DNA of 64,000 nt. Source: Minisyncoccota bacterium (GTDB lineage: Bacteria > Patescibacteriota > Minisyncoccia > Phycocordibacterales > JABMNX01). The stretch covers positions 42,986 through 106,985 of the forward strand of contig JBBDOU010000008.1 in assembly GCA_040876885.1 (NCBI GenBank), written 5' to 3'. Positions 3,294 through 63,046 of this stretch are shown here, piece after piece; within the stretch, counting starts at the first letter, position 1, and the number at the start of each line of letters is the position of its first letter. The notes under the pieces were generated by a model. That model saw only the letters and a list, made by a program, of their open reading frames with translations. It searched no databases and was not told the DNA's origin. A program made the translations under genes and the position numbers.

Positions 3294-4526
3294 ATGGCAA
3301 CAGAAACAGCAAAACTCTACGAAAACGTAAAAATAACAGAACTTGAAAACTCTGAAATTGAAATTGAGGGGGAAATTCCTCTTTCTTGTATTCCAGCATA
3401 TAGAACGAAAGCACTAAAAAAACTTGGTGAACACGCAAACATCGACGGTTTCCGAAAAGGGCACATTCCTGAAAAAGTACTAATAGAAAAGGTCGGAGAA
3501 GGATCACTTATGGGTGAAGTCGCTGAACTCGCGCTTGCGGACATGTATCCTACGCTTGTGCAGGATAAAAATCTTGAAGTTATTGGTGCACCACAGGTGA
3601 CCATCACAAAACTAGCCCCAGGAAACCCTATTGGATTTAAAATCAAAAGCGCCATAGTTCCTGCGTTCACACTCCCTGACTACACGACAATTGCAAAAGA
3701 AGTTATGGGCGCACCTGTAGTTGATGGTGATGCGCTTGAAGTAACTGACGCTGATGTAGAAAAAGTAATGACCGAAGTGCGTCGTGGAAAAGCGCGTTTT
3801 GAGAAAGCACAAAAACAAGCTGAAAACCCTAATACTGAAACAGGAGAACCAAAAGAAGAGCCTAAGGTAAGTGGCCCTGTTAGAACTAACGACTCCAAAA
3901 AGTCTACTTCTAACGGGGTAGGAAGCGAAACCCCGTTAGAGACAGGAACTAAAAGTTCCGAAGACTCTAACGGGGAAAACCTTCCAGAGCTTGATGATGC
4001 ATTTGTCGCAACACTTGGTGACTTTAAAACAGTGGCTGATTTTGAGAAACGAGTGCGAAGAGACCTTGAAAAAGAAAAAGAACAAAAAAATCGTGACAAG
4101 AAACGAATCACGCTTTCAGAGAAACTCATCGAAGCGACTGACATTAAACTTCCCACCATTTTAGTCTCAAGTGAGCTCGACAAGATGGTTGCGCAAATGA
4201 AAGACGACACTGCACGGATGAATATGAAATTTGAAGATTACCTTACTCATGTAAAGAAGACAGAAGCAGACCTTCGTCTTGAATGGAAAGAACAAGCAGA
4301 AAAACGGGCAACACTACAGCTCCTCCTTAATAAAATAGCTGACAAAGAAAAAATATCAGCAGACCACGATGCAGTACACAAGCAAATGGATATAATCCTC
4401 GAACACCACAAAGATGCAGACCCTCGAAACGTACATATCTATGTAGAGACTCAACTCACTAACGAAGCGGTATTCCAACTACTTGAAGAAGAAAAGAAAG
4501 AAAAAGAAACCCCAGTTGAGAAGTAA
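3294..4526 (+). CDS. tig: Trigger factor (ribosome-associated chaperone)
   Basis: N-terminal ribosome-binding signature IDGFRKGHIPEKVL; classic tig-clpP order. Confidence 0.9.
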   Translation: MATETAKLYENVKITELENSEIEIEGEIPLSCIPAYRTKALKKLGEHANIDGFRKGHIPEKVLIEKVGEGSLMGEVAELALADMYPTLVQDKNLEVIGAPQVTITKLAPGNPIGFKIKSAIVPAFTLPDYTTIAKEVMGAPVVDGDALEVTDADVEKVMTEVRRGKARFEKAQKQAENPNTETGEPKEEPKVSGPVRTNDSKKSTSNGVGSETPLETGTKSSEDSNGENLPELDDAFVATLGDFKTVADFEKRVRRDLEKEKEQKNRDKKRITLSEKLIEATDIKLPTILVSSELDKMVAQMKDDTARMNMKFEDYLTHVKKTEADLRLEWKEQAEKRATLQLLLNKIADKEKISADHDAVHKQMDIILEHHKDADPRNVHIYVETQLTNEAVFQLLEEEKKEKETPVEK

Positions 4527-5671: not shown

Positions 5672-7201
5672 ATGTCATTAAAAGTAATACTGGTTCTGCT
5701 CATCGTTGCGGGACTTATCGGTATTGCAGTTGGTTACTTTCTACGTTGGCTCCATTCTCTTGGAAGACGAGGTTCAATGGAACTCGAAATCAAGCAAATG
5801 ATGCTTGAGGCACGTGACGATGCGAAAAACATCACAAAAGAAGCCGAAGCAAAAGCCGAAAAGACACTCACTGAGCTGAGTCAAGAGCTAAAAGAAGGAA
5901 GAGAACAGTTGAAGAGAACTGAAGACCGTCTTGTAAAAAAGGAGGAGCTTTTAGATAAACGACAGACAGATATCGACGCTGATGTTGAAAACCTCAAAAA
6001 GAAAATAGAAGAAGTCCGCGTATTTAAAGAAAAAGCTGAAGCGTTGGTTCTAGAACGACAACTGAGTTTAAGTAATGTTGCACATCTTAGTGCTGACGAT
6101 GCAAAAAAGGAGCTCCTTGGGCTTATTGAAAAACAGTCTGAAGAAGATATGCTTATCCGTCTTCAAAAGCTAGAAATTGAAGGGAAAGAACGTCTTGAAA
6201 GAAAAGCGCAGGATATCCTTACCACCTCTATTCACCGTCTTGGAAACTCAGTGATTGACGATATTATGTCTACGTCAGTGAAAATTCCATCTGATGAAGT
6301 TAAAGGAAAGATAATTGGAAAAGAAGGTCGTAATATAAAAGCATTTGAACGGGCAACCGGCGTTGACGTCATTATTGATGACACACCACACACAATAAAT
6401 ATCTCATCATTTGACCCGATTCGTCGTCATGTAGCACGTATTGCACTAGAGAACCTTATCGCTGACGGACGAATTCAACCGGCAAAAATTGAAGAAGTGG
6501 TACAGAAGGCAAAAGATGAAATCAATAAGACGATTAAAGAAAAAGGTGAGCAAGCAGCGTACGAATCAGGAGTACATAATCTTGATCCACGCGTTGTCGC
6601 GATACTTGGGCGCCTTCACTTCCGTACGAGCTACGGGCAAAACGTCTTGTACCACTCAATAGAGATGGCGCACATTGCGGGAATGCTTGCAGAAGAACTT
6701 GGTGCTGACCCGTACGTTGCACGCGCTGGAGCACTCCTTCATGACATCGGTAAAGCGGTTGATCACGAGGTTCAAGGAACACATGTTGAGATAGGAAAAC
6801 GTATCTTACAAAAATTCGGAGTAGACGAGGCTATCATCAAGGCGGTTATCGCACATCACGAAGAATACCCGTACGAGACACCTGAATCTATGATAGTTCA
6901 AGTTGCTGATGCTATTTCAGGTGGACGACCTGGAGCACGTCGTGATTCTGTAGAGAACTATATACAACGTCTCGAAGAGCTTGAGGCTATAGCCAAAAAC
7001 TTCCCTGGTGTTGAAAAGAGTTACGCAATTCAGGCTGGACGAGAAATTAGAGTATTCGTAACTCCTGAGAAAGTCTCTGACTTAGAAGCTAAGAAAATGG
7101 CGCGTTCTATAGCGCTCCAGATTGAAAACGAGCTCAAATACCCAGGAGAAATTAAGGTAAATGTTATCCGAGAGTCACGCTCTATAGAGTTTGCGCGGTA
7201 A
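5672..7201 (+). CDS. rny: Ribonuclease Y
   Basis: N-terminal TM helix, coiled coil, KH domain (KGKIIGKEGRNIKAFERATGVDVIID) and HD domain (HSIEMAHIAGMLAEELG...LLHDIGK). Confidence 0.9.
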   Translation: MSLKVILVLLIVAGLIGIAVGYFLRWLHSLGRRGSMELEIKQMMLEARDDAKNITKEAEAKAEKTLTELSQELKEGREQLKRTEDRLVKKEELLDKRQTDIDADVENLKKKIEEVRVFKEKAEALVLERQLSLSNVAHLSADDAKKELLGLIEKQSEEDMLIRLQKLEIEGKERLERKAQDILTTSIHRLGNSVIDDIMSTSVKIPSDEVKGKIIGKEGRNIKAFERATGVDVIIDDTPHTINISSFDPIRRHVARIALENLIADGRIQPAKIEEVVQKAKDEINKTIKEKGEQAAYESGVHNLDPRVVAILGRLHFRTSYGQNVLYHSIEMAHIAGMLAEELGADPYVARAGALLHDIGKAVDHEVQGTHVEIGKRILQKFGVDEAIIKAVIAHHEEYPYETPESMIVQVADAISGGRPGARRDSVENYIQRLEELEAIAKNFPGVEKSYAIQAGREIRVFVTPEKVSDLEAKKMARSIALQIENELKYPGEIKVNVIRESRSIEFAR

Positions 7202-7736: not shown

Positions 7737-7811
7737 AGAGAGAATCGGTCACGGTCGCTAAATGTTTTGGGGTCAAGTTTCTAAACTTGCTTTGTTAGTA
7801 GAGAGAATCGA
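7737..7811. repeat. Two partial copies of the tRNA-Gly(TCC) T-loop/3' stem flanking an 18-nt motif TTGGGGTCAAGTTTCTAA
   Basis: agagagaatcg at 7737 and 7798 matches the T-arm of the adjacent tRNA (gtagagagaatcgaac at 7932); the same 18-mer recurs at 12986. Confidence 0.5.
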
Positions 7812-7920: not shown

Positions 7921-7928
7921 GTATTTTG

Positions 7929-7999
7929 TGCGGGTAGAGAGAATCGAACTCTCGTCTACTGCTTGGAAGGCAGTCATTCTACCACTAAACTATACCCGC
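7929..7999 (-). tRNA. tRNA-Gly (anticodon TCC)
   Basis: Reverse complement GCGGGTATAGTTTAGTGGTAGAATGACTGCCTTCCAAGCAGTAGACGAGAGTTCGATTCTCTCTACCCGCA folds as a cloverleaf; anticodon loop CTTCCAA. Confidence 0.9.
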
Positions 8000-9706: not shown

Positions 9707-10762
9707 TTATTTAAGCAGATGCACTGTCTGCGTCGGGTATGCGAATTCTATCTTTTCTTTTTTAAAGGATTCCAATAACTTTATATTAAGCTCCTCTTGA
9801 AGGTCTACGTAATCGATGTATTCACGTGTTGGTATATAGTACACAACCTCATAATCAAGTGCCGAAGAAGCGAGTGCTTTGAGGTGCACTCTATCAAGCC
9901 GTGCATTCCCCACTTCAAGCCCCGCAAATATTGCTCGCACCATATCGGGAACCGCCTTTATTTTTGGAAGATCGGTCTCATATAAAATACCAAAAGAAAA
10001 CACTGCTCGCCGTTCGGTCATCTTTTTAAGGTTTTGAATACGTGCAGAGGTCAGTTCCTGATTTGAAATTACAATCTCCTCCCCCTGCAGTGCACGAAGT
10101 CGTGTTGTTTTAATACCAATCTTTTCTACTGTACCTGAGTGCTCTCCTACAATAACAAAGTCACCTACCTCAAATGGTTTGTCGAAGTAAATCGCAAACG
10201 AGCTAAACAAATCAGAGAGAATATTCTGCATTGCAAGCGCAATCGCAATACCTCCAATACCAAGACCGGCGACAAGTGAGGTAATGTTAATTCCAAGGTT
10301 TGAAATAACTGCAAGAATCGCAATAATCCACAATCCCCATTTCACTGCACTCCCTAAGAATCGATATGCTTTTTGTCCATCTTTCCCTTCCCGCTTCGCC
10401 CACTTTTCTAATGTGTAATCAATAAGCACATGGAGTGCGGTTACTACCTGGTAGGCAATTACAACAAAAATTAACCCGTCAATCACCCTATCGATAGTAG
10501 TGGTGAAAGATAAGTATTGCAGTGCAAAATACACCGAAAGCATGTAATAAAATGCAGGCTTCACACTTCTGATAATGCGAATTAACGTATCATCAATATC
10601 AGTCTCGGTCTTTTTAGCAAGACTCTCTAGGCGTTTCAAAATCCCCCACTGTAGAAATCTAAATACGAGTGTCAGCACGATAAAAATACCGAGCGCCAAC
10701 AGGTACGCCTGAAGACTATTACCAAAAAATACATACTCACTCCTTTGTAACATTTCAATCAT
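9707..10762 (-). CDS. Mechanosensitive ion channel, MscS family
   Basis: 351 aa; several TM helices followed by the MscS beta-domain region GDFVIVGEHSGTVEKIGIKTTRLRALQGEEIVISN. Confidence 0.85.
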   Translation of the reverse strand: MIEMLQRSEYVFFGNSLQAYLLALGIFIVLTLVFRFLQWGILKRLESLAKKTETDIDDTLIRIIRSVKPAFYYMLSVYFALQYLSFTTTIDRVIDGLIFVVIAYQVVTALHVLIDYTLEKWAKREGKDGQKAYRFLGSAVKWGLWIIAILAVISNLGINITSLVAGLGIGGIAIALAMQNILSDLFSSFAIYFDKPFEVGDFVIVGEHSGTVEKIGIKTTRLRALQGEEIVISNQELTSARIQNLKKMTERRAVFSFGILYETDLPKIKAVPDMVRAIFAGLEVGNARLDRVHLKALASSALDYEVVYYIPTREYIDYVDLQEELNIKLLESFKKEKIEFAYPTQTVHLLK

Positions 10763-10997
10763 ATAATCTTAGTATATCAAAAATTAAAGACTTTTTAAAA
10801 AGTATGCCACAGGTAAGCGTCTTCCTTAATATGAGATCATGGGATATGTCTTGACTATCTCTAAGTTCGTAAACCCACTAAGAGTGGCGGGACACAACTC
10901 AGCCTTTCCTCGCTTCGTGCGTGATTCCGCCGTTCGTGACTTTGTTTTATTTATAAAACAAGAAACACTCCTGTGGTGAATCCCAGTACTTCGCGCA

Positions 10998-11045
10998 CAT
11001 GAAAACAAAAAGATGACTAAAGCTAGCCATCTTTTTGTTTTCATG
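10998..11045 (-). terminator. Long hairpin immediately 3' of tRNA-Pro (18-bp perfect inverted repeat)
   Basis: catgaaaacaaaaagatg ... catctttttgttttcatg. Confidence 0.6.
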
Positions 11046-11118
11046 TCGGGATGCCGGGATTCGAACCCGGAGTCGCCCGCTCCCAAAGCGGGAATGTTAG
11101 CCGTTACACTACATCCCG
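11046..11118 (-). tRNA. tRNA-Pro (anticodon TGG)
   Basis: Reverse complement CGGGATGTAGTGTAACGGCTAACATTCCCGCTTTGGGAGCGGGCGACTCCGGGTTCGAATCCCGGCATCCCGA; anticodon loop TTTGGGA. Confidence 0.88.
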
Positions 11119-12824: not shown

Positions 12825-12832
12825 GTATTTTG

Positions 12833-12903
12833 TGCGGCCAGGGGTAATCGAAACCCCGACTCATCCTTGGCAAGGACGTGTTATACCACTTAACCATGGC
12901 CGC
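12833..12903 (-). tRNA. tRNA-Gly (anticodon GCC)
   Basis: Reverse complement GCGGCCATGGTTAAGTGGTATAACACGTCCTTGCCAAGGATGAGTCGGGGTTTCGATTACCCCTGGCCGCA; perfect D-stem; anticodon loop TTGCCAA. Confidence 0.88.
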
Positions 12904-13007: not shown

Positions 13008-13292
13008 CGCCAGGATTCGAACCTTACAGATTCAGTACAGGTTGGCGATATTTTTACAAAATATCTGACAACCTTTTCGAATCCTCTTAGTCGCTACAAA
13101 CAAAATCACCCAATGTTCTCACATCGGGTTCATTTGTTTGTTGTGCGCCTACCAGGATTCGAACCTTACAGATTCAGTACAGGTTGGCGATATTTTTACA
13201 AAATATCTGACAACCTTTTCGAATCCTCTTAGTCGCTACAAACAAAATCACCCAATGTTCTCACATCGGGTTCATTTGTTTGTTGTGCGCCT
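13008..13292. repeat. 142-bp tandem duplication (two units) each carrying the 3' half of tRNA-Arg (T-loop to discriminator) plus 119 bp of downstream spacer
   Basis: caggattcga recurs at 13011, 13153 and 13295 (period 142); units are identical and run directly into the intact tRNA-Arg; the most distal copy (13008-13022) diverges after CCTGG. Confidence 0.85.
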
Positions 13293-13357
13293 ACCAGGAT
13301 TCGAACCCAGAATAACGGTTCCGAAGACCGTTGTGATATCCATTTCACCATAGGCGC
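13286..13357 (-). tRNA. tRNA-Arg (anticodon TCG)
   Basis: Reverse complement GCGCCTATGGTGAAATGGATATCACAACGGTCTTCGGAACCGTTATTCTGGGTTCGAATCCTGGTAGGCGCA; perfect acceptor stem; anticodon loop CTTCGGA. Confidence 0.85.
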
Positions 13358-61024: not shown

Positions 61025-61190
61025 AGCTGTTTTTTAAAACATCAAGGATGTCCTCTGTTGTTTAAAAATAAACGTCACAGGTATCGGTGGTGTTTATCTC
61101 ATGGAGGCATTTTTTTGTTTTTATGATATGGTGTATGGGTTGATTTTTGAGTTGTGAGTAGAACCAGCATTTGGTACCATATAAAGGCAA

Positions 61191-61263
61191 CCGCCCGTAG
61201 CTCAGTTGGTAGAGCAGCTCCCTTTTAAGGAGAATGTCGTAGGTTCAAGTCCTACCGGGCGGA
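61191..61263 (+). tRNA. tRNA-Lys (anticodon TTT)
   Basis: CCGCCCGTAGCTCAGTTGGTAGAGCAGCTCCCTTTTAAGGAGAATGTCGTAGGTTCAAGTCCTACCGGGCGGA; anticodon loop CTTTTAA. Confidence 0.85.
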
Positions 61264-61264
61264 C

Positions 61265-62095
61265 ATGAATGAGTTTAAACAGCAGTGTATTAAGTTGAGA
61301 GAAAAAGACCACACACTTTCTGAAATCATGCAGATAACAGGAAGGTCAAAAACATCTATCTATTTTCACATACAGAACATTGCACTTAGTTCTCTAAAAC
61401 AGAAAGAAATTCGAGATGCAAGTCGCACGAGAGTTCTTGATCTTTCACAAGCAAGGAAAGGTAAAAGCAAAAAACCTTTTAAGAAGTTTCCTCAGTGGAA
61501 CATTCAGGCAGTTTCTTTGGTGGCACACTTACTTTTTGGTGGAGAAATTCAGTCAAATAAATGTGTCTATAGTAACCGAAGCGTTGCTTTATGTAAGAAG
61601 GTCGAAAATTCTATGTGTCTGTTTTATGATTTTGAGCCTAAACGGCGGTATAACAAACAGACGGGAGTAACAAGTATCAGTTATTTTAATGTTGAGCTTA
61701 CATCATATCTTAAGCATAAAGCGAAGGCATTGCTTATTGAGATTGAATTTTTTCCTGAAGAATTTAAGCGAGAATTTTTGCGCGCATTTTTTGACGATGA
61801 AGGGTGTATAGATTTTAAACCTCATAGCGGTACGCGACGAGTTCGTGGGTATCAAAAAGATACAACAATACTATATCTTGTGTGGAAACTTCTTCGAGAT
61901 TTTAATATTAACGCAAAGATTCAACTTCCTAATGAAGTCGTAATATCAAAAAAAGAAAATTTACTAAAGTTTCAAAAAGAAATAGGTTTTTCTATTGGAG
62001 TTAAAATGAATGGAAATAGACCAAATAGCGTCTGGAAAAAACATATGGAAAAAAGTGATATTCTTAAAAAGGCTATAGACTCGTACGGTTCTTAA
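61265..62095 (+). CDS. Free-standing double-motif LAGLIDADG homing endonuclease with N-terminal HTH
   Basis: Motif 2 FLRAFFDDEGCI is canonical; motif 1 LVAHLLFGGEI is degenerate; HTH LSEIMQITGRSKTSIYFHI; begins 2 nt after tRNA-Lys. Confidence 0.65.
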   Translation: MNEFKQQCIKLREKDHTLSEIMQITGRSKTSIYFHIQNIALSSLKQKEIRDASRTRVLDLSQARKGKSKKPFKKFPQWNIQAVSLVAHLLFGGEIQSNKCVYSNRSVALCKKVENSMCLFYDFEPKRRYNKQTGVTSISYFNVELTSYLKHKAKALLIEIEFFPEEFKREFLRAFFDDEGCIDFKPHSGTRRVRGYQKDTTILYLVWKLLRDFNINAKIQLPNEVVISKKENLLKFQKEIGFSIGVKMNGNRPNSVWKKHMEKSDILKKAIDSYGS

Positions 62096-62103
62096 AAATA
62101 ACT

Positions 62104-62508
62104 TTATAACGGTAAGTCTACTGCGGGAGCTCCAGCACCAGTAAGGAGGAGAGAAAGAAAGATTGCAAAAAGAAGAATATAGAATATCCGTTCATGAGGG
62201 ACGAGGACTGGAAACTCTTTTTTAAACCAGAGGAGTTTTAGTGCATAGAGTCCACCAAGAAGCGCCATAACCTGTGTAAGAAATCCTGCAATAAGAAAGA
62301 GTCCAAGCACAACCTCAAAGAGTCCGCCGAAAACAATAAAGATTGTTGTGGGTGACCCAAGTCGAGCGTACAGTTTTTCAACAAGCGTCTCTCTTTGAGT
62401 AGTAAGGTGTCCCCATCCTATGTGGAGCAGATAGGCACCAACAACAACACGAAGAATAAACGGTGCGAAGATGCCAAAAATTAAGAGTGATGGAAAAATA
62501 CTTAACAT
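62104..62508 (-). CDS. DoxX-family membrane protein
   Basis: LRVVVGAYLLHIGWGHL ... LIAGFLTQVMALLGGLYALKLL; start set at MLSIFPSL, since the longer track ORF would overlap the convergent SpoU gene. Confidence 0.5.
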   Translation of the reverse strand: MLSIFPSLLIFGIFAPFILRVVVGAYLLHIGWGHLTTQRETLVEKLYARLGSPTTIFIVFGGLFEVVLGLFLIAGFLTQVMALLGGLYALKLLWFKKEFPVLVPHERIFYILLFAIFLSLLLTGAGAPAVDLPL

Positions 62509-62581
62509 AAATATATTGCTAGTATACCACGACTCCTTTATAGGAAACCACCGTTTCTGTGTGGTACCCTGCATAGACACT

Positions 62582-63046
62582 ATGAAAGAAACACACATTA
62601 TCTTGCACAATATACGAAGCGCTCTTAATGTAGGGTCCATATTTCGCTCTGCCGACGGGGCTGGTGTTTCAAAGATACATCTCACGGGGTATTCACCAAC
62701 GCCTATTGATAGGTTTGGGAGAAATGAAGCAACGATTGCAAAAACAGCGCTTGGTGCAGAGCATTCGGTTTCTTGGGAGCAGGGAGAAATACAGACAGTA
62801 CTTCGTACACTCAAAGATTCTGGATATTTAATCGTGGGAGTCGAGCAAACTGCAGACGCGAAGAACTACAAAGAGTTTATAGCCAGAGGGAAAACAGTTT
62901 TTATATTTGGAAACGAAGTTGGGGGTCTTGAGGATGAGGTTCTTAGGGTGTGTGATGAGACTATTGAAATTCCAATGCGTGGAGAGAAGGAGTCTTTAAA
63001 TGTTGCGGTTGTCGCGGGTATTATCTTGTTTAACTACACACCTTAG
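62582..63046 (+). CDS. SpoU/TrmH-family RNA 2'-O-methyltransferase
   Basis: NVGSIFRSADGAGV, IFGNEVGGL, ESLNVAVVAGIILF; start at MKETHIILHN. Confidence 0.8.
   Translation: MKETHIILHNIRSALNVGSIFRSADGAGVSKIHLTGYSPTPIDRFGRNEATIAKTALGAEHSVSWEQGEIQTVLRTLKDSGYLIVGVEQTADAKNYKEFIARGKTVFIFGNEVGGLEDEVLRVCDETIEIPMRGEKESLNVAVVAGIILFNYTP

What the first reader, a model, noticed from the sequence alone, without database searches (positions are those of the whole stretch)
61191..62095. Free-standing LAGLIDADG homing endonuclease starting 2 nt after an intact tRNA-Lys
The tRNA-Lys(TTT) folds normally and is uninterrupted. Immediately after it, a 276-aa ORF carries an N-terminal HTH, a canonical second LAGLIDADG motif (FLRAFFDDEGC) and a degenerate first motif (LVAHLLFGGEI). 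Bacterial LAGLIDADG genes usually sit inside introns or inteins. A free-standing copy abutting a tRNA suggests either a homing event next to the tRNA or a domesticated enzyme with a half-decayed first active site.
Basis: partly seen in the sequence, partly recalled or inferred. Interest (0 to 1): 0.55.

Follow-up and report, generated by a model that had tools for sequence, protein, structure and literature searches.

The report
Homing endonuclease gene locked to tRNA-Lys
The ORF is a real two-domain LAGLIDADG endonuclease gene from a large family that, in many ultra-small (Paceibacteria) bacteria, always starts one base after the tRNA-Lys(UUU) gene; close relatives lack it at the same spot, and this copy has lost one catalytic residue.

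Summary
tRNA-Lys(UUU) lies at 61191-61263, followed by C74. The 276-aa ORF (61265-62095) starts at the next base. It has an I-DmoI-like double LAGLIDADG fold and an N-terminal three-helix domain that looks like an HTH.

This is not a one-off event. The ORF belongs to a family of at least 441 proteins. In 77 of 77 informative genome loci the gene follows tRNA-Lys(UUU) on the same strand, and in 57 of 78 the junction is exactly A73-N-ATG.

At the same syntenic site (polA-holA-[tRNA-Lys]-DoxX-SpoU), 20 related metagenome loci carry the tRNA without the ORF. Three of these belong to the window's own clade.

- **Inheritance:** mostly vertical and under purifying selection. One genome pair shares a near-identical tRNA+ORF tract inside diverged flanks, and three copies are disrupted.
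- **Active site:** the family's first motif is intact (FDG in all about 200 other copies). Only the window copy has D92G, and three assemblies agree on it.
- **Inferred mechanism:** co-transcription with the tRNA, then translation of a leaderless mRNA released by tRNA 3' processing.

I found no published description of this linkage. I rate it a new variant of a known kind, of moderate interest.

The parts
61158..61190 (+). Conserved promoter-like element directly upstream of the tRNA (gtaGAACCagCatTtGgTAccaTATaAAGGcAa). It includes an extended -10-like TGnTAnnAT box.
   Evidence: Matches 20 of 23 specified positions of the consensus nTnGAACCTnCnTCTGnTAnAnTATnAAGGnAn. GAACC sits exactly 30 nt before tRNA +1 in 25 loci. 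The motif occurs in 37/78 ORF-bearing loci against 1/20 empty loci. The link is imperfect: L177, an ORF-bearing locus in the window's own clade, lacks it. Its function is inferred.
61191..61264 (+). tRNA-Lys(UUU) gene: positions 1-73 (61191-61263) plus genome-encoded C74 (61264). CCA is not encoded.
   Evidence: Rfam RF00005 70.6 bits and ARAGORN. All five tRNA genes in the window end A73-C74-A without CCA.
61265..62095 (+). 276-aa free-standing LAGLIDADG endonuclease ORF. There is no spacer, promoter or Shine-Dalgarno sequence between it and the tRNA.
   Evidence: The same ORF, with no nucleotide difference, is in three assemblies (L178-L180).
61265..61456 (+). N-terminal three-helix HTH-like domain and long connecting helix (residues 1-64), followed by a flexible linker (about residues 65-79).
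   Evidence: AF2 helices 2-13, 18-25, 29-36 and 43-64, with a pLDDT dip at 61-70. Weak HTH family hits recur across members: IclR HTH, sigma-70 region 4, HTH_23/28.
61517..61549 (+). LAGLIDADG motif 1 (LVAHLLFGGEI, residues 85-95). Codon 92 (61538-61540, GGT) encodes Gly where the family has the presumed metal-binding Asp (GAT).
   Evidence: FDG is present in 119 of 120 homologs and in every other genomic copy. Residue 92 sits at the C-terminal end of helix 80-91. GGT is identical in three assemblies.
61775..61807 (+). LAGLIDADG motif 2 (FLRAFFDDEGC, residues 171-181). E179 is the presumed second metal-binding residue.
   Evidence: E179 is invariant in alignment A1, and DDEG/NDEG is found in 119 of 120 homologs. 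It lies at the end of helix 165-179.

Best explanation
The ORF belongs to a Paceibacteria-wide family of free-standing, monomeric (I-DmoI-like) LAGLIDADG endonuclease genes with an added N-terminal HTH-like domain. The family is physically locked to the 3' end of the tRNA-Lys(UUU) gene.

**Shown.** The start codon follows the last conserved tRNA-gene base (C74) with no spacer. The gene is present or absent at one syntenic site among close relatives. It is under purifying selection and mostly co-diverges with the host. One genome pair shows a recent transfer or gene-conversion tract covering the tRNA and the ORF. A few copies are disrupted.

**Inferred.**
- The gene has no promoter of its own and is transcribed from the tRNA-Lys promoter as the tRNA's 3' trailer.
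- tRNA 3' processing (RNase Z-type cleavage at or after position 73/74) releases an mRNA that begins (C)AUG. It is translated as a leaderless mRNA, in a genome that largely lacks Shine-Dalgarno sequences.
- The enzyme cuts ORF-less tRNA-Lys alleles at or near the junction between the tRNA 3' end and its flank. Repair from an occupied allele then copies the ORF, together with the tRNA and neighbouring flank.

The window's own copy carries D92G at the metal-binding Asp of motif 1. It is therefore probably cleavage-deficient, either a nickase or a DNA binder only, at an early stage of the decay part of the homing-endonuclease life cycle.
For: - **Fold and motifs:**
- **Family size and length conservation:**
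- **tRNA linkage:** tRNA-Lys(UUU) lies directly upstream on the same strand in 77/77 loci not cut by a contig end. ATG begins exactly 1 nt after the discriminator in 57/78, and within 6 nt or less in 71/78.
- **Synteny:** polA-holA-[tRNA-ORF]-(DoxX)-SpoU-orf316 is conserved.
- **Empty sites:** a sample chosen by PolA similarity alone gave 20 loci with tRNA-Lys at the same site and no ORF. They hold no remnant by profile HMM.
- **Mixed clade:** within the window's clade (PolA 76-81% identity) the window, L174/L175 and L177 carry the ORF, while L081, L083 and L091 do not.
- **Selection:** omega is about 0.07-0.11.
- **Recent transfer:** in L046/L047 the tRNA+ORF tract is 99-100% identical over at least 1.2 kb (ORF dS 0.00). 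The flanks are 80-88% identical (polA dS 0.60, holA dS 0.38).
- **Disrupted copies:** L060 has a stop; L069 and L078 have frameshifts.
- **Catalytic residues:** D92 and E179 are conserved across the family, as are basic residues R105 and K198. They match the roles of D21/E117 and the nearby Lys residues of I-DmoI (PMC3384342).
- **Window copy:** D92G is unique to it and reproducible.
- **Expression context:** SD-like motifs precede only 3/41 ORFs, and -10-like boxes pile up 6 nt before start codons. A host SpoU-family gene starts 1 nt after tRNA-Lys C74 in L090.
- **No phage copies**.
Against: - No cleavage activity, target site or transcript end has been measured.
- ORF and PolA identities correlate (Pearson 0.62). 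No recent transfer is seen apart from L046/L047, so long-term persistence looks mostly vertical. That is unusual for a purely selfish homing gene and fits a host function equally well.
- The tRNA sequence does not distinguish occupied from empty alleles. The window tRNA differs by 1 nt from that of empty locus L084. Immunity of occupied alleles therefore needs a target that extends into the poorly conserved 3' flank.
- The L046/L047 tract reaches a contig end on one side, so an assembly chimera cannot be fully excluded.
- The three disrupted copies could be MAG sequencing errors.
Confidence: 0.58

Rival explanations
1. Domesticated protein. The HTH-LAGLIDADG protein serves the host, for example as a DNA-binding regulator or guardian of the tRNA-Lys locus that binds the conserved upstream element. 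This would resemble WhiA or the autorepressor role of I-TevI. Its linkage to the tRNA would then reflect co-regulation.
For: - It co-diverges with PolA over deep divergence.
- Purifying selection is comparable to that on neighbouring host genes.
- The junction is strictly conserved and the gene is tightly packed against the next gene.
- A 33-nt upstream motif is enriched in ORF-bearing loci, 37/78 against 1/20.
- The window copy keeps every other conserved residue despite losing D92: only 3 deviations at 93 conserved columns, against a family median of 2.
- WhiA appears among the structural matches.
Against: - Close relatives with the same gene order lack it, so it is dispensable.
- Disrupted copies exist.
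- The nuclease residues are conserved in about 200 copies, unlike WhiA (PMC3384342).
- No WhiA-specific Pfam domains are found.
- One transfer-like tract exists.
- The upstream motif is missing from ORF-bearing L177.
Confidence: 0.27
2. A single recent homing or insertion event next to the tRNA in this genome only.
For: The three nearest PolA relatives in the metagenome sample lack the ORF.
Against: - The same arrangement occurs in 77 other species-level genomes.
- Other members of the window's clade (L174/L175, L177) carry it in the same synteny. Their ORF divergence (62-64%) is similar to that of neighbouring genes (DoxX 61-62%; SpoU 60% and orf316 65% in L174/L175).
Confidence: 0.04
3. A remnant of an intron- or intein-encoded endonuclease whose host element has decayed, or a chance ORF.
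For: LAGLIDADG_3 is the intein/I-DmoI-type domain. The NCBIfam hits are to intein-bearing archaeal proteins.
Against: - The tRNA is uninterrupted and no intron RNA family is detected.
- No Hint/intein domains are found.
- The ORF is conserved in length and sequence in hundreds of genomes.
Confidence: 0.02

Closest known systems
I-DmoI and other monomeric double-motif LAGLIDADG homing endonucleases (Pfam LAGLIDADG_3)
   Same: [quoted passage not shown] Asp (motif 1) and Glu (motif 2) sit at the ends of the two LAGLIDADG helices. I-DmoI is the best structural match.
   Different: It is not inside an intron or intein. It has an extra N-terminal HTH-like domain of about 65 residues. It is fixed to a tRNA gene flank. 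The window copy lacks the motif-1 Asp.
Free-standing homing endonuclease genes of phages, such as T4 Seg/Mob enzymes. SegB lies in the T4 tRNA gene cluster and T5 enzymes lie in its tRNA region (from my own knowledge, not checked here).
   Same: An intergenic, free-standing endonuclease gene beside conserved genes, patchily present among relatives, and presumably spread by cutting alleles that lack it.
   Different: Those enzymes are GIY-YIG or HNH types and are phage-borne. Here the enzyme is LAGLIDADG and chromosomal in Paceibacteria, with none found in viral contigs. It is locked at zero spacing to one specific tRNA and mostly inherited vertically.
WhiA/DUF199 (domesticated LAGLIDADG plus HTH transcription factor)
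   Same: A LAGLIDADG double domain combined with an HTH. WhiA is among the structural matches (3hyi, E 8.7e-7).
   Different: The WhiA HTH is C-terminal and its catalytic acidic and basic residues are lost (PMC3384342). Here the HTH is N-terminal and the catalytic residues are conserved across the family. No WhiA Pfam domains are found.
LAGLIDADG endonucleases in rRNA insertion sequences and group I introns of CPR bacteria (Tsurumaki et al. 2024, PMC11270868)
   Same: The same bacterial radiation and the same enzyme superfamily. The target is a highly conserved RNA gene, and the distribution mixes vertical retention with loss.
   Different: Those genes lie inside rRNA genes and mostly have a single domain. 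That paper never uses the word tRNA. Here the gene lies outside the RNA gene, at the 3' flank of the tRNA.
Mitochondrial 'tRNA punctuation' and leaderless mRNAs
   Same: A coding sequence abuts a tRNA, so tRNA excision would create an mRNA 5' end at the start codon.
   Different: This analogy concerns expression only and is inferred, not shown. The host is a bacterium, where the arrangement is not an established rule.

Membership tests
LAGLIDADG homing endonucleases (monomeric, I-DmoI type) | LAGLIDADG domain detectable by a profile above the curated threshold | tested here: met
   PF14528 scores 33.7 bits against a cut-off of 22.5. All 24 aligned members match.
LAGLIDADG homing endonucleases (monomeric, I-DmoI type) | [quoted passage not shown] | tested here: met
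   AF2 model with pLDDT 91.4. Foldseek top matches are I-DmoI, E 1.9e-7, TM (target-normalised) 0.62.
LAGLIDADG homing endonucleases (monomeric, I-DmoI type) | An acidic metal-binding residue at the end of each LAGLIDADG helix | tested here: not met
   The window copy has G92 in motif 1 and E179 in motif 2. The family has D92 in 119/120 homologs and in every other genomic copy, and E179 in all but one homolog. The family meets this feature; this copy does not.
LAGLIDADG homing endonucleases (monomeric, I-DmoI type) | Site-specific cleavage of a long target, leaving 4-nt 3' overhangs | not testable with these tools
   Needs an in vitro assay.
Homing (mobile) endonuclease gene | Present or absent at one homologous site among related genomes | tested here: met
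   78 occupied and 20 empty tRNA-Lys loci share the same synteny. They are interspersed by PolA similarity and mixed within the window's clade.
Homing (mobile) endonuclease gene | Evidence of lateral transfer or gene conversion into diverged backgrounds | tested here: inconclusive
   There is one clear case, L046/L047: ORF dS 0.00 against flank dS 0.38-0.60. Otherwise ORF and PolA divergence correlate (r 0.62).
Homing (mobile) endonuclease gene | Housed in a self-splicing intron or intein | tested here: not met
   The tRNA is intact, no intron RNA is found and there are no intein domains. The gene is free-standing.
WhiA/DUF199 | C-terminal WhiA HTH, WhiA_N and LAGLIDADG_WhiA domains, with catalytic residues lost | tested here: not met
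   No WhiA Pfam families are hit. The HTH is N-terminal and the catalytic residues are conserved in the family.
tRNA-punctuated leaderless mRNA | The coding sequence starts at or within 1 nt of the tRNA 3' processing site, with no SD or promoter in between | tested here: met
   The genomic junction is A73-C74-ATG, and 57/78 loci have the same junction.
tRNA-punctuated leaderless mRNA | A co-transcript exists and the processed mRNA 5' end lies at the start codon | not testable with these tools
   Needs RNA-seq or 5' RACE. There is only indirect support: SD motifs precede 3/41 ORFs and -10 boxes lie 6 nt before start codons.

The most novel reading that the evidence does not exclude
The unit [upstream element - tRNA-Lys(UUU) - endonuclease ORF] may be a gene-drive-like cassette that carries its own copy of an essential tRNA. 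It would replace resident tRNA-Lys alleles, and its mRNA would be made by tRNA 3' processing as a leaderless transcript. Alternatively, the protein has been co-opted as a sequence-specific regulator or guardian of the tRNA-Lys locus while keeping a nuclease site. Either way it would be a bacterial example of tRNA-punctuated expression of a protein gene, conserved across a class-level clade.
Probability: 0.25. Interest if true: 0.75.

Novelty: new variant of a known kind. Interest (0 to 1): 0.55.

Why it matters
- **A new anchoring point.** Free-standing LAGLIDADG genes in bacterial chromosomes are uncommon. I found no description of one anchored, base for base, to a tRNA gene across about a hundred species-level genomes.
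- **A natural experiment.** Occupied, empty, disrupted and catalytically mutated alleles exist at one syntenic site. This allows study of how a homing-type endonuclease persists in tiny, streamlined genomes.
- **A testable expression mechanism.** It gives a concrete case for tRNA-processing-dependent, leaderless gene expression in CPR bacteria.
- **A possible enzyme resource.** The family may supply new meganuclease specificities that combine an HTH with a LAGLIDADG core and target a tRNA gene.

Tried and rejected
1. **Remnants in empty sites.** A profile-HMM search of six-frame translations downstream of the 20 empty tRNA-Lys genes found nothing (best E 0.67).
2. **Nucleotide 'footprints' of the ORF 5' end in empty sites.** Only L090 stood out (z 4.6). 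That signal is the N-terminus of a SpoU/TrmH-like gene that itself starts 1 nt after the tRNA, so it is not a footprint.
3. **A second tRNA-abutting ORF after tRNA-Pro in the window (AC|ATG).** This is most likely just the terminator hairpin.
4. **The upstream motif as an inverted T-arm fragment.** Not supported: only 5/78 loci have an inverted match of 8 nt or more.
5. **tRNA sequence differences as an immunity mark.** None were found. The window tRNA differs by 1 nt from that of empty locus L084.
6. **Phage carriage.** No relatives occur in viral contigs.
7. **Distant relatives.** P0250, P0210, P0207, P0239 and P0187 (172 bits or less) do not follow tRNA-Lys, so the linkage is specific to the core family.
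8. **Same-population polymorphism.** Every contig carrying the window's exact holA protein also carries the ORF.
9. **'tRNA-Stop(tta)' in L110 and L112.** This is an ARAGORN register artefact. The anticodon loop is the usual CTTTTAA.
10. **Literature.** Five full-text searches found no description of a tRNA-Lys-linked LAGLIDADG gene.

Full report
**What is in the window.** ARAGORN and Rfam both call an intact tRNA-Lys(UUU) at 61191-61263/4 (70.6 bits, E 2e-14). The next base after C74 (61264) is the A of the ATG of a 276-aa ORF, 61265-62095. CCA is not encoded. All five tRNA genes of the window end A73-C74-A. The flanking genes are holA upstream and, downstream, a convergent DoxX-like gene and a SpoU-family methyltransferase gene. 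The window matches a Candidatus Paceibacterota MAG contig.

**The protein.** Pfam LAGLIDADG_3 matches residues 166-241 above threshold. An AlphaFold2 model built on 24 homologs is confident (pLDDT 91.4). [quoted passage not shown] Foldseek against the PDB returns I-DmoI first (E 1.9e-7), followed by intein endonucleases and WhiA. HTH families hit the N-terminus weakly but repeatedly across members.

Residues 92 and 179 lie at the C-terminal ends of the two LAGLIDADG helices. These are the positions of the essential metal-binding D21/E117 of I-DmoI (PMC3384342).

**The family and its fixed position.**
- A word-indexed search found 441 homologs. The top 120 are nearly all 273-288 aa long and 50-64% identical to the query.
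- A full profile search found 87 clusters (at 50% identity) below E 1e-30.
- Scanning one genome per GTDB species returned 80 loci, all in Paceibacteria-type MAGs.
- In every locus not truncated by a contig end (77 of 77), a tRNA-Lys(UUU) lies directly upstream on the same strand.
- In 57 of 78 loci (window included) the ATG begins exactly 1 nt after the discriminator. In 71 of 78 the start is within 6 nt.
- More distant relatives (172 bits or less) are not linked to tRNA-Lys.
- No relative was found in viral contigs.

**Presence and absence at one site.** The neighbourhood polA-holA-[tRNA-Lys-ORF]-(DoxX)-SpoU-orf316 is conserved. The tRNA-ORF unit occurs in either orientation within it.

A sample of 74 metagenome loci was chosen only by similarity to the window's PolA. 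It contained 20 loci with tRNA-Lys(UUU) at the same site and no ORF, and no remnant of one.

Occupied and empty loci are interspersed by PolA similarity. Inside the window's own clade (PolA 76-81% identity):
- **Occupied:** the window, L174/L175 and L177.
- **Empty:** L081, L083 and L091.

In empty L081 the tRNA is followed by a terminator hairpin and about 245 bp of intergenic DNA before DoxX. In occupied loci the ORF runs up to the stop codon of the convergent neighbour.

**Mode of inheritance.**
- Among occupied loci, ORF identity tracks PolA identity (Pearson 0.62).
- Where dS can be estimated, omega is about 0.07-0.11, similar to neighbouring host genes, although dN is 1-4 times higher than for PolA.
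- Within the window's clade, ORF divergence (62-64%) resembles that of DoxX (61-62%), and in L174/L175 that of SpoU (60%) and orf316 (65%).
- This points to long vertical residence with repeated loss.
- One exception exists. In L046/L047 the tRNA plus ORF tract is 99-100% identical over at least 1.2 kb (ORF dS 0.00), ending about 100-200 bp after the stop codon. The flanks are 80-88% identical (polA dS 0.60). This is the signature of a recent transfer or gene conversion. The tract reaches a contig end on one side.
- Three copies are disrupted: one by a stop codon and two by frameshifts.

**The active site.** The family consensus for motif 1 is LVAHLLFDGEI. The Asp is present in 119 of 120 database homologs and in all 80 other genomic copies. 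E179 of motif 2 is invariant in the 24-sequence alignment and conserved in 119 of 120 homologs, and basic residues R105 and K198 are conserved.

The window's protein alone has Gly (GGT in place of GAT), and this is identical in three independent assemblies. Otherwise it deviates at only 3 of 93 conserved columns, which is typical for the family. The 'half-decayed first motif' is therefore a private, recent lesion of this copy and not a family trait.

**How it probably works (inferred).** Nothing separates the tRNA from the ATG, so the ORF must be transcribed with the tRNA. A promoter-like 33-nt element sits directly upstream of the tRNA (61158-61190). It is shared by 37 of 78 occupied loci but only 1 of 20 empty ones, although occupied L177 lacks it.

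Processing at the tRNA 3' end would leave an mRNA starting (C)AUG. This genome seems suited to such mRNAs. Only 3 of 41 ORFs have an SD-like motif, and -10-like boxes cluster 6 nt before start codons. In empty locus L090, a host SpoU-family gene starts 1 nt after the same tRNA.

The likely target of the enzyme is the ORF-less allele around the junction between the tRNA 3' end and its flank. The tRNA body itself does not differ between occupied and empty alleles.

**Comparison with known systems and verdict.** The enzyme class is known, and NCBI already names these proteins LAGLIDADG family homing endonucleases. Published CPR work describes LAGLIDADG genes inside rRNA insertions (PMC11270868) and group I introns in tRNA genes (PMC13011429). 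Neither paper, nor five full-text searches, describes this tRNA-Lys-flank family.

It is not WhiA: the domain order differs, the catalytic residues are kept, and there are no WhiA domains. I file it as a new variant of a known kind: a free-standing, HTH-bearing LAGLIDADG homing-type gene locked to tRNA-Lys. A domesticated role remains a serious rival (about 0.27).

Noticed in passing
window, all ORFs of 150 aa or more (for example holA, start 60311): The genome almost lacks Shine-Dalgarno motifs (3 of 41 ORFs). TATAAT-like hexamers pile up 6 nt before start codons (7 genes; 11 of 40 at 5-9 nt). Leaderless mRNAs therefore seem common.
   Followed up: partly
window 13010-13284 (- strand), downstream of tRNA-Arg(tcg) at 13285-13357; also 7737-7811, downstream of tRNA-Gly(tcc): Tandem units of about 142 bp each repeat the last 23 nt of tRNA-Arg plus its terminator (copies at 13143-13165 and 13010-13023). 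Shorter 3' fragments follow tRNA-Gly. This resembles the E. coli tyrT repeats.
   Followed up: partly
L001 about 3759-3926; L084 upstream of the tRNA at 10247-10320 (- strand); L083, L085, L095/L097, L104: Copies of 'promoter plus the first 10-23 nt of tRNA-Lys' lie upstream of the real gene: four 42-bp tandem units in L001, three 39-bp units in L084, and single copies elsewhere. They occur in occupied and empty loci alike. Their origin is unexplained.
   Followed up: partly
L081-L131 and L001-L080, the tRNA-Lys locus: The orientation of tRNA-Lys relative to polA-holA flips even between close relatives (L081 is +; L083 and L091 are -), with or without the ORF. This suggests a rearrangement hotspot.
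   Followed up: no
L090 6244-6819: In a relative without the endonuclease gene, a SpoU/TrmH-like methyltransferase ORF (6319-6819) starts 1 nt after C74 of tRNA-Lys. A host gene therefore uses the same tRNA-abutting layout.
   Followed up: partly
window 10826-11044 (- strand), after tRNA-Pro at 11045-11118: AC|ATG also follows tRNA-Pro and opens a 72-codon frame with a lipoprotein-like N-terminus. The sequence is a perfect terminator hairpin (ATGAAAACAAAAAGATG...CATCTTTTTGTTTTCAT), so the frame is probably spurious.
   Followed up: yes
window tRNA genes 7928-7999, 11045-11118, 12832-12903, 13285-13357, 61191-61264; other tRNAs in loci: tRNA genes encode C74 after the discriminator (37 of 39 non-Lys tRNAs in the loci) but mostly not the full CCA (7 of 39). 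A CCA-adding enzyme is therefore needed, and there may be a shared 3'-processing determinant.
   Followed up: partly
window 62104-62814 (-) versus 62471-63046 (+): The 236-aa minus-strand ORF overlaps the SpoU-family gene. Only its 3' part (about 62104-62505, DoxX-like, 133-134 aa) matches genes called in related contigs.
   Followed up: partly
L110 10238-10311 and L112 3618-3691: ARAGORN labels these 'tRNA-Stop(tta)'. The anticodon loop is the same CTTTTAA as in the other tRNA-Lys(UUU) genes, so this is a register artefact and not a suppressor tRNA.
   Followed up: yes
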